64,000 nucleotides of DNA, taken from positions 26,670 to 90,669 of IMG/VR virus record IMGVR_UViG_3300037313_001148. One strand, written 5' to 3'. This document shows positions 58,447-59,267 of the stretch, in pieces. The position numbers and the translations under genes were made by a program. Every line of letters starts with the position of its first letter. Position 1 is the first letter of the stretch. The notes beneath the pieces are model-generated. The model was not told the origin of the DNA. It worked only from the letters and a program-made list of their open reading frames with translations, and did no database searches. This stretch comes from a virus. Its lineage: Duplodnaviria; Caudoviricetes.

Positions 58447-59022
58447 ATGCATTCCCATGACCGGACCCTGGCTTCCCAAATCCTGAACGATTCTGATCGA
58501 AAGACTCACCGCCACGAACTCGCCTGCATTTACGTCAAGGAACACGCATACGATCTTGTTGATAAACTCATGCACATTTACTCTGGCGAATGGGACTGTC
58601 AGATTCCCGGACACATCCAAGCAAACATCGAATCTCATCTCATGAAAGGGGAGGGAAGGTATTCCGTTACGGTCGGGTTTGTGGACGTGACTGTTTCTTG
58701 TGTTGTTAGGGAGGACGGAAGCTCGATCCCTGCCAATATTGCCGTCGAAGTGAAGACTCAAGAAACTCCGATCTCTGACTGTATCAGGCAAATCAAACTT
58801 TACAAGAAATATCAAGATTCACTTGACTTTCAATATGGAAACGGTCAAATCGACTGGTTCCTTATTACAGACTATAAGATTTCAAAAACAGAACATAGTA
58901 TTCTCTGGAATGAAGGAATCTTTCATGCCTGCCTGGGTGAAATGTTCCAGCAATGGATCGACGAGAACCGGCATCGCCTCCCAAATCGTTCAAAGGTAAA
59001 ACCTTCACGGTTTTCAGATTGA
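58447..59022 (+). CDS. PD-(D/E)XK nuclease-fold protein
   Basis: GFVDV...AVEVKT...IRQIKLY. Confidence 0.75.
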   Translation: MHSHDRTLASQILNDSDRKTHRHELACIYVKEHAYDLVDKLMHIYSGEWDCQIPGHIQANIESHLMKGEGRYSVTVGFVDVTVSCVVREDGSSIPANIAVEVKTQETPISDCIRQIKLYKKYQDSLDFQYGNGQIDWFLITDYKISKTEHSILWNEGIFHACLGEMFQQWIDENRHRLPNRSKVKPSRFSD

Positions 59023-59047
59023 CTCCTCCTGAAAATCCCGGTACAAT
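59019..59047 (+). promoter_or_regulatory. sigma70 promoter upstream of the solitary CRISPR repeat
   Basis: TTGACT, 17 nt, TACAAT. Confidence 0.75.
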
Positions 59048-59115
59048 AAACCTGCCTGAAGTGGGAAGGATAGGGGGCATGTGCCAGGGAGCCGGGCCTT
59101 CTCAAGAGCATCAAT

Positions 59116-59148
59116 GCCGTCTCTCGCGAGAGGGACGTGGATTGAAAC
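59116..59148 (+). CRISPR. second solitary type I-C-like repeat
   Basis: gccgtctctcgcgagagggacgtggattgaaac (33 nt); shares the 3' 17 nt with 43873-43905; compensated hairpin. Confidence 0.75.
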
Positions 59149-59267
59149 TCACTCGCAACGCACAGAAAACCACGCATAGATTGATCGATCTAGGCTTGGG
59201 CCTGTCCGCTTCGATCCGACAACCCCGGCTCCCATTTACATTTTATTTCGTGTTTTATTATACTCCC

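What the first reader, a model, noticed from the sequence alone, without database searches (positions are those of the whole stretch)
59019..59185. Second solitary type I-C repeat under a near-consensus promoter (Racr or mini-array candidate)
Seen: TTGACT-N17-TACAAT, then a 33-nt repeat sharing gggacgtggattgaaac with the 43873 copy but with a different, compensated stem. It is followed by tcactcgcaacgcacagaaaaccacgcatagattg, for which I found no match in the window, and there is no clear second repeat. Inference: an RNA anti-CRISPR decoy, or a guide against the host or a competing element.
Basis: partly seen in the sequence, partly recalled or inferred. Interest (0 to 1): 0.7.

Follow-up and report, generated by a model that had tools for sequence, protein, structure and literature searches.

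The report
Lone CRISPR repeat in soil phage
A 91-kb soil phage carries, behind a good promoter, a single copy of a type I-C CRISPR repeat, one of four scattered through its genome. It most likely makes a small decoy RNA that ties up the host's CRISPR proteins, a trick already known from other phages.

Summary
At window 59116-59148 (+) there is a 33-nt type I-C-like repeat. It has a 2-nt 5' overhang, an 8-bp stem, a GCGA loop, the cut-site G and the exact 11-nt 5' handle TGGATTGAAAC. It lies about 70 nt downstream of TTGACT-N17-TACAAT (59019-59047). It is solitary: I found no second repeat within 150 nt.

It is one of four such units in a 90,669-bp IMG/VR virus record; two lie outside the window. 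All four keep CGTGGATTGAAAC and are co-oriented with their flanking genes. The stems differ but still pair in R2-R4; R1's is degenerate. Those conserved features match the published determinants of Cas5c cleavage.

The 35 nt downstream match nothing significant. I searched the phage itself, IMG/VR, JGI metagenomes, cultured phages, plasmids and five candidate-host genomes, with and without a TTC PAM.

The best reading is a solitary repeat unit acting as an RNA anti-CRISPR (Racr-like decoy), so a new member of a known kind. A mini-array is not supported. A short-seed regulatory guide (Cracr-like) cannot be excluded, because the host is unknown.

No RNA data and no relatives carrying this locus exist, so function remains inferred. 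Other notes of this scan flagged the three sibling units, and similar lone repeats on other DNA.

The parts
59019..59047 (+). sigma-70-like promoter TTGACT-N17-TACAAT; the -35 box overlaps the stop codon of the upstream PD-(D/E)XK-like gene (58426-59022)
   Evidence: 10/12 match; background 0.17 sites per kb per strand
59054..59115 (+). predicted about 62-nt leader (start inferred from the -10 box). Together with the repeat's first 22 nt it would give an about 84-nt 5' product after Cas5c cleavage
   Evidence: inference. The leader shows no similarity to CRISPR leaders or to any fetched array locus
59116..59148 (+). solitary type I-C-like repeat (R4). Overhang GC 59116-17; stem 59118-59125 paired with 59130-59137; GCGA loop 59126-59129; predicted Cas5c cut after G59137; 11-nt 5' handle TGGATTGAAAC 59138-59148
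   Evidence: geometry compared with PMC8524198
59149..59183 (+). 35-nt spacer-like sequence with no detectable target (pseudo-spacer)
43873..43905 (+). sibling solitary I-C-like repeat R3 (8-bp stem, UUGC loop). Its downstream 22 nt match its own promoter 21/22 beside a TTC
59087..59096 (+). left arm of a perfect 10-bp inverted repeat (GGGAGCCGGG with CCCGGCTCCC at 59224-59233) that brackets repeat plus pseudo-spacer and is followed by a T-rich run. This is a possible 3' boundary; its significance is weak

Best explanation

Inferred mechanism: in a host with a type I-C system, Cas5c recognises the 8-bp hairpin and the UGG... tail and cuts after G59137. This yields two products:
- an about 84-nt leader-plus-hairpin RNA;
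- an RNA that starts with the authentic 11-nt 5' handle followed by a sequence with no target.

Both would soak up Cas5c and Cas7 (the second perhaps also Cas8c and Cas11) into complexes that cannot find phage DNA. That would lower the pool of functional Cascade, which is a Racr-type RNA anti-CRISPR.

Shown here: the sequence, the fold, its solitary state, its copy number, and the absence of a target. Inferred: transcription, cleavage, Cas binding and inhibition.
For: The record is viral: it has a terminase and a portal, and it is an IMG/VR record.

GTGGATTGAAAC occurs four times exactly, against about 0.01 expected. R2-R4 have 7-8-bp stems that end exactly at the cut-site G. The invariant part, CG|UGGAUUGAAAC, is what Cas5c reads, whereas stem sequence, loop and 5' overhang are free to vary (PMC8524198). 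Two stem pairs are compensated between R3 and R4.

All four units are intergenic and co-oriented with the flanking genes. R4 has a 10/12 promoter upstream, no repeat within 150 nt, and no cas5d or cas7 on the record.

R2 is 31/32 identical to a widespread genuine I-C array repeat. Thirteen other IMG/VR contigs carry the same 17-mer, each as a single copy; most of these are hairpin-bearing solitary repeats and at least one (L131) looks like a chance match in coding DNA.

Solitary repeats behind promoters in phages are established Racrs, including the validated type I-C RacrIC1 (PMC10651486).

No target was found for the pseudo-spacer. The 'spacers' of siblings R1 and R2 are simply the RBS and start of the next gene, which argues that guidance is not the common purpose of these units.
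Against: There is no expression or processing evidence. No RNA run holds the phage.

The host is unknown, so a matching I-C system could not be shown.

The R3/R4 stem type (U-A third pair...GGGACG) was not seen as an array repeat in about 1,200 sampled genomes of three soil phyla. It appeared there only as point-mutant repeats or lone copies. So R4 is not an exact mimic of any array I could find.

No acr-like neighbour was found. The upstream gene looks like a PD-(D/E)XK nuclease.

The repeat starts about 62 nt after the predicted start site rather than directly behind the promoter.

In RacrIF1 the active product depends on Cas6f, which type I-C lacks, so the decoy mechanism for I-C is extrapolated.
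Confidence: 0.5

Rival explanations
1. R4 is a one-repeat crRNA-like guide. It could be a viral Cracr/crlRNA or a minimal one-spacer weapon. After Cas5c cleavage, the handle plus the downstream 20-35 nt would load into host Cascade and direct it to a PAM-flanked site. The site could be a host promoter such as cas or a CRISPR-guarding toxin (repression through partial pairing), or a competing phage.
For: The 5' handle is intact, and type I-C needs no Cas6-bound 3' hairpin. Sibling R3 carries a 21/22 match to its own promoter directly after a TTC, far above background (the next best is 13), so guide-type logic exists in this genome. Viral Cracrs against I-C systems, and single-repeat-plus-spacer designs, are described (10.1101/2024.10.29.618823).
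Against: There is no second, even degenerate, repeat, and no terminator at spacer distance.

No match was found in the phage itself or in IMG/VR. JGI metagenomes gave 0 hits for 29 nt. For TTC plus 17 nt they gave 7 hits whose tails match at random level; the best is 20/22, p about 0.1.

Cultured phages and plasmids gave only chance hits with E of 0.4 or more. The 120 I-C array loci gave nothing, and five candidate-host genomes have no TTC plus 11 nt.

The 3 nt before the repeat are AAT/ATG, not TTC, so the 'repeat inserted at its own target' (homing) design does not apply.
Confidence: 0.2
2. R4 is a cis-acting Cas5c docking and processing site in a longer phage mRNA. The repeat marks the transcript of the downstream genes (59350 onward) for cleavage or Cas-protein binding, so their expression depends on whether the host has active type I-C proteins. 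That would make it a Cas-sensing leader.
For: All four units are co-oriented with downstream genes. R1 and R2 end 27 and 23 nt before a start codon. At least four independent viral or proviral I-C lone repeats do the same at 17-30 nt, a distance a Cas5c/Cas7 footprint would cover. No terminator separates R4 from the next gene.
Against: R4 is 201 nt from the next credible start. A second promoter-like site (59235-59264) and a dispersed structured element (59268-59316) lie in between. No RBS-led ORF follows R4 at spacer distance.
Confidence: 0.15
3. R4 is a relic or a recombination substrate. It could be a leftover of past recombination with a host array, or an attP-like site for integration into CRISPR repeats. 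Either way it would have no RNA function.
For: There are no expression data. One other lone repeat (L138, a provirus) sits 27 nt upstream of a large serine recombinase gene.
Against: The 13-nt cut-site-plus-handle is perfectly preserved in four copies, while the stems of R2-R4 diverged with compensation. This points to selection on an RNA hairpin, not on DNA identity. There is no recombinase near R4. The phage is 100% identical across at least five independent soil/rhizosphere runs; two further holders may be the sample of origin.
Confidence: 0.1

Closest known systems
Viral solitary repeat units / RNA anti-CRISPRs (Racr), especially RacrIC1 (Camara-Wilpert et al. 2023, PMC10651486)
   Same: It is a single CRISPR-repeat mimic in a phage intergenic region with a promoter upstream. 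It has no cas genes and no neighbouring repeat. The hairpin and handle are of one defined subtype (I-C).
   Different: - RacrIC1 lies 11 nt downstream of an acrIC5 homologue in one operon. R4 has no recognisable acr neighbour and sits about 62 nt behind its own promoter.
- This phage has four divergent I-C units, whereas five other unit-bearing viral records that I checked have one each.
- No functional test exists for R4.
Viral crRNA-like regulatory RNAs (Cracr; Liu et al., bioRxiv 10.1101/2024.10.29.618823)
   Same: Both have a repeat-like element followed by a spacer-like sequence on a phage. I-C examples and single-repeat architectures exist. Sibling R3 shows partial PAM-flanked complementarity of the kind these RNAs use.
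   Different: Cracrs are defined by 9 or more PAM-proximal matches to a host cas or toxin promoter. No such target could be found or tested for R4, and R3's match is to the phage's own promoter, not the host's.
Virus-borne mini-CRISPR arrays (Faure et al. 2019 and Medvedeva et al. 2019, as cited in PMC10651486)
   Same: A CRISPR repeat on a virus without cas genes, followed by a spacer-sized unique sequence.
   Different: Mini-arrays have two repeats and spacers that match related viruses. R4 has one repeat and no match anywhere searched.

Membership tests
Viral SRU / Racr (PMC10651486) | Encoded on a virus or plasmid, in an intergenic region | tested here: met
   It is an IMG/VR virus record with terminase and portal. 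The flanking genes end at 59022 and start at 59350. ORFs that overlap the unit have no family hits.
Viral SRU / Racr (PMC10651486) | Sequence and secondary structure match repeats of a defined CRISPR subtype | tested here: met
   It has a 2-nt overhang, an 8-bp stem, a tetraloop and the 11-nt tail TGGATTGAAAC. Canonical I-C is 2 nt, 7 bp, 5 nt and 11 nt (PMC8524198). The last 13 nt are identical to the real I-C arrays fetched. The whole-repeat alignment score to the nearest array repeat in hand is 21, consistent with about 27 of 33 identical. Rfam CRISPR-DR models do not reach threshold.
Viral SRU / Racr (PMC10651486) | Solitary: no full or partial repeat within about 100 bp | tested here: met
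   Local alignment to 150 nt on each side scores 7, below shuffled means of 8.1-9.5. No handle-like site (4 or fewer mismatches) lies in the next 250 nt.
Viral SRU / Racr (PMC10651486) | Not associated with cas genes on the element | tested here: met
   Cas_Cas5d and Cas_Cas7 profiles find nothing in the record, which is 78% complete.
Viral SRU / Racr (PMC10651486) | Expressed as a small RNA and processed by the cognate Cas endoribonuclease | not testable with these tools
   Only a promoter-like site supports this. All 11 runs that hold the phage are DNA.
Viral SRU / Racr (PMC10651486) | Host carries the matching CRISPR-Cas subtype | tested here: inconclusive
   The host was not identified. 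None of about 1,600 spacers from I-C arrays hits the phage. The terminase is at most 37% identical to anything with a named host.
Viral SRU / Racr (PMC10651486) | Inhibits CRISPR interference | not testable with these tools
   This needs a phage or plasmid targeting assay.
Viral SRU / Racr (PMC10651486) | Often adjacent to acr genes (an enrichment, not a requirement) | tested here: not met
   The neighbours have no Pfam, PHROG or PDB-sequence match to Acr proteins. The upstream protein has a PD-(D/E)XK-like predicted fold.
Virus-borne mini-CRISPR array | At least two repeats flanking a spacer | tested here: not met
Virus-borne mini-CRISPR array | Spacer matches a related virus or other mobile element | tested here: not met
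   No significant match in IMG/VR, JGI metagenomes, INPHARED phages or PLSDB plasmids.
Viral Cracr / crlRNA (10.1101/2024.10.29.618823) | 9 or more PAM-proximal nucleotides match a host cas or CRISPR-guarding toxin promoter | tested here: inconclusive
   The host is unknown. There is no TTC plus 11 nt in five genomes with near-identical I-C repeats, and no seed of 8 or more in 120 array loci. Such short seeds cannot be searched in the large collections.

The most novel reading that the evidence does not exclude
The four divergent I-C repeat units may together wire the host's Cas5c/Cascade into the phage's own gene control:
- R1 and R2 place a Cas5c site one spacer-length ahead of a start codon.
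- R3 makes a guide that matches its own promoter beside a TTC.
- R4 is the free-standing member, which either titrates Cas proteins or guides them to a target not yet seen.

On this reading the phage senses and exploits type I-C immunity rather than only blocking it.
Probability: 0.12. Interest if true: 0.8.

Novelty: new member of a known kind. Interest (0 to 1): 0.4.

Why it matters
If active, R4 adds a type I-C RNA anti-CRISPR from an uncultured soil phage lineage that has no close relatives.

The set of four units would be a natural experiment. The stems of R2-R4 differ and R1's is degenerate, the handle is invariant, and there are three different genomic contexts. That would show which parts of a repeat Cas5c needs, and whether lone repeats act as decoys, guides or mRNA processing sites.

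Taken alone, the unit is an ordinary example of a published class.

Tried and rejected
- **Mini-array:** rejected, because there is no second repeat.
- **Self-targeting like R3:** rejected for R4.
- **Homing-cassette design** (repeat inserted right after a TTC of its own target): the bases before the repeat are AAT/ATG, and no insert-free sibling exists in the collections.
- **CRISPR-leader similarity of the R4 leader:** none.
- **Repeat's TTGAAA acting as a -35 box:** this fits only R3, not R1, R2 or R4.
- **Comparative analysis:** failed for lack of relatives.
  - The upstream protein has one 29% homologue among 5.8 billion proteins.
  - The primase-polymerase is at best 41-45% identical.
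  - Three distant viral loci have no repeat.
  - Single-protein scans of IMG/VR found nothing, and the exact R4 repeat is absent from IMG/VR.
- **Population variation:** contigs from four runs are identical to the window.
- **RNA evidence:** no RNA holder is listed.
- **Host assignment:** failed by array spacers and by terminase similarity.
- **Rfam:** only a sub-threshold CRISPR-DR9 hit, and that on R2.
- **L146 hit:** the 20/22 PAM-flanked match lies in a 2.8-kb gene-poor contig and is at chance level.
- **Inverted repeats bracketing the units:** the 10-bp pairs around R1, R2 and R4 are not significant given the window sizes.

Full report
**What is there**

The window is bases 26,670-90,669 of a 90,669-bp IMG/VR virus record that CheckV rates 78% complete. 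The record encodes a large terminase and a portal fusion protein. It is held at essentially 100% identity by 11 soil and rhizosphere DNA runs, none of them RNA.

At 59019-59047 there is a TTGACT-N17-TACAAT site, a 10/12 match. Its -35 box overlaps the stop codon of the upstream gene (58426-59022). Sites of this quality occur 0.17 per kb per strand in the genome, so finding one within about 120 nt upstream on the correct strand has a chance of about 0.02. The 58.4-61.5 kb stretch is unusually rich in such sites.

From 59116 to 59148 lies GCCGTCTCTCGCGAGAGGGACGTGGATTGAAAC. It folds into an 8-bp stem (59118-59125 with 59130-59137) closed by a GCGA loop. A 2-nt overhang precedes the stem and the 11-nt tail TGGATTGAAAC follows it. 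The hairpin survives in the MFE and centroid folds of the predicted transcript.

This is the geometry of a type I-C repeat. The canonical form is a 2-nt overhang, 7-bp stem, pentaloop and 11-nt tail. [quoted passage not shown]

**It is one of four**

The exact 12-mer GTGGATTGAAAC occurs four times in the genome, against about 0.01 expected. The reversed-pattern control gives none.

| Unit | Position | Stem |
|---|---|---|
| R1 | C1:6058-6090 (-), outside the window | degenerate |
| R2 | C1:15384-15415 (+), outside the window | 7 bp |
| R3 | window 43873-43905 (+) | 8 bp |
| R4 | window 59116-59148 (+), this finding | 8 bp |

- All four keep CGTGGATTGAAAC.
- The R2-R4 stems end exactly at the cut-site G. 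Such an anchored helix occurs at 0.4-0.9% of random positions.
- Between R3 and R4, two stem pairs changed on both sides and two changed through G-U.
- All four lie between genes and point the same way as those genes.
- R2 is 31/32 identical to a repeat found in real I-C arrays of Isosphaeraceae, Acidobacteriota and other lineages.
- The pattern of an invariant cut site and handle with a free but pairing stem is what selection for Cas5c recognition would produce. Selection on DNA identity would not give this pattern.

**Solitary, and without a target**

Aligning the repeat to 150 nt on either side gives scores below shuffled sequence. No handle-like site follows within 250 nt. The record has no cas5d or cas7.

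The 35 nt after the repeat (59149-59183) were searched as follows:
- The whole phage, with and without a TTC PAM and ignoring every sixth base: the best PAM-flanked run is 6-10 nt, which is background.
- IMG/VR: 23 nt without PAM, and TTC plus 17 nt, gave 0 hits each.
- JGI metagenomes: 29 nt gave 0 hits. TTC plus 17 nt gave 7 hits, about the number chance predicts, with tails matching 1-8 of 18. The best, L146, is 20/22 in a gene-poor 2.8-kb contig, p about 0.1.
- Cultured phages and plasmids by BLAST: only E of 0.4 or more, and the plasmid hits include the AAC of the repeat rather than a PAM.
- 120 I-C array loci and five genomes with near-identical repeats: nothing.

The leader and the pseudo-spacer resemble nothing in those loci. 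Within the phage, the only repeated sequence nearby is an unrelated dispersed element that starts at 59266.

**What it most likely does**

Lone CRISPR repeats behind promoters in phage intergenic regions are a described class. Many act as RNA anti-CRISPRs, including the validated type I-C RacrIC1 (PMC10651486). R4 meets every sequence-level criterion of that class.

I therefore read it as a small RNA of at least about 130 nt. Host Cas5c would cut it after G59137. Both products would then divert Cas5c and Cas7 from real crRNAs. The downstream product, which carries a genuine handle, would form a Cascade-like particle with a guide that points nowhere.

Two further points favour decoy over guide. 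First, the 'spacers' of R1 and R2 are simply the RBS and first codons of the next gene. Second, R4 lacks any second repeat or any terminator at spacer distance.

I put this reading at about 0.5, because nothing about expression, processing or the host could be tested.

**Rivals**

- *Regulatory guide (Cracr-like; 10.1101/2024.10.29.618823), about 0.2.* It stays alive mainly because sibling R3 has a 21/22 match to its own promoter right after a TTC. It also survives because 9-12-nt seeds in an unknown host cannot be searched.
- *Cis-acting Cas5c site in a longer mRNA, about 0.15.* It is suggested by R1 and R2, which end 27 and 23 nt before a start codon. At least four independent viral or proviral lone repeats do the same at 17-30 nt. 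However, R4 is 201 nt from the next gene, with another promoter-like site and a structured element between.
- *Relic or integration site, about 0.1.* This is unlikely given four preserved handles and compensated stems.

**Weak points**

- The host is unresolved. The terminase is at most 31-37% identical to anything with a named host, and about 1,600 spacers from I-C arrays do not hit the phage.
- The R3/R4 stem type (...GGGACG) was not found as an array repeat in about 1,200 sampled Planctomycetota, Acidobacteriota and Verrucomicrobiota genomes. It appeared only as point-mutant repeats or lone copies.
- Neighbouring genes are not acr-like. The upstream protein has a PD-(D/E)XK-type predicted fold and the next larger gene is CoiA-like.

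**Verdict**

This is a new member of a known kind. The one unusual feature is the number and diversity of units in a single genome. Five other viral records with such a unit have one each, two of them complete genomes.

Noticed in passing
G000:C1:6058-6090(-) and 15384-15415(+) (outside the window); L126/L128/L132/L133/L134/L136, L137:11621-11653(-), L138:9196-9228(+), L149:1484-1516(+): Lone type I-C repeats end 17-30 nt before a Shine-Dalgarno site and start codon in at least six independent cases: R1 at 27 nt, R2 at 23, a 105-aa ORF family at 26, L137 at 30, L138 at 27 before a large serine recombinase, and L149 at 17 in a Planctomycetota genome. A Cas5c/Cas7 footprint would cover the ribosome-binding site. 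This may be a Cas-dependent leader architecture rather than a free decoy.
   Followed up: partly
window 43838-43927: The 22 nt after repeat R3 match 21/22 the spacer region of R3's own promoter, directly after a TTC that overlaps the -35 box. The repeat's TTGAAA plus the duplicated GATATT also form a second promoter-like site. This is a separate finding of the scan.
   Followed up: partly
window 59266-59316 and at least 9 other + strand sites (1998, 6600, 12846, 18330, 22610, 35261, 41695, 43340, 48423): A dispersed element: conserved ...ACA-CTCCTCCTTCTCCG-TCGTCCC followed by a hairpin of variable sequence with a GNA-type loop, often 50-80 nt before a start codon. The CU-rich core resembles an anti-Shine-Dalgarno sequence. 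Its GTCGTCCC resembles the 5' start of some viral I-C lone repeats.
   Followed up: partly
window 59127-59137 and 59289-59299: The 3' arm of the R4 stem is perfectly complementary (11 nt) to the copy of the dispersed element 151 nt downstream. This could offer an alternative pairing that opens the repeat hairpin. The chance level is about 0.03 in a 500-nt window, and the match is partly explained by the element's conserved CGTCCC.
   Followed up: no
window 58426-59022: The 198-aa protein upstream of R4 has almost no sequence relatives: one at 29% identity among 5.8 billion proteins. Its predicted fold is PD-(D/E)XK nuclease-like (Mrr/NucS-like), with an E-V-K motif.
   Followed up: partly
window 58374-61540: Seven of the 19 plus-strand promoter-like sites (10/12 or better) of the whole 90.7-kb genome fall in this 3.2-kb stretch of small genes.
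   Followed up: no
L001:2551-2612 (G000:C1:7108-7169): Sub-threshold Rfam match to Ocean-V RNA (26 bits, gathering score 75, E 0.07). Probably chance.
   Followed up: no
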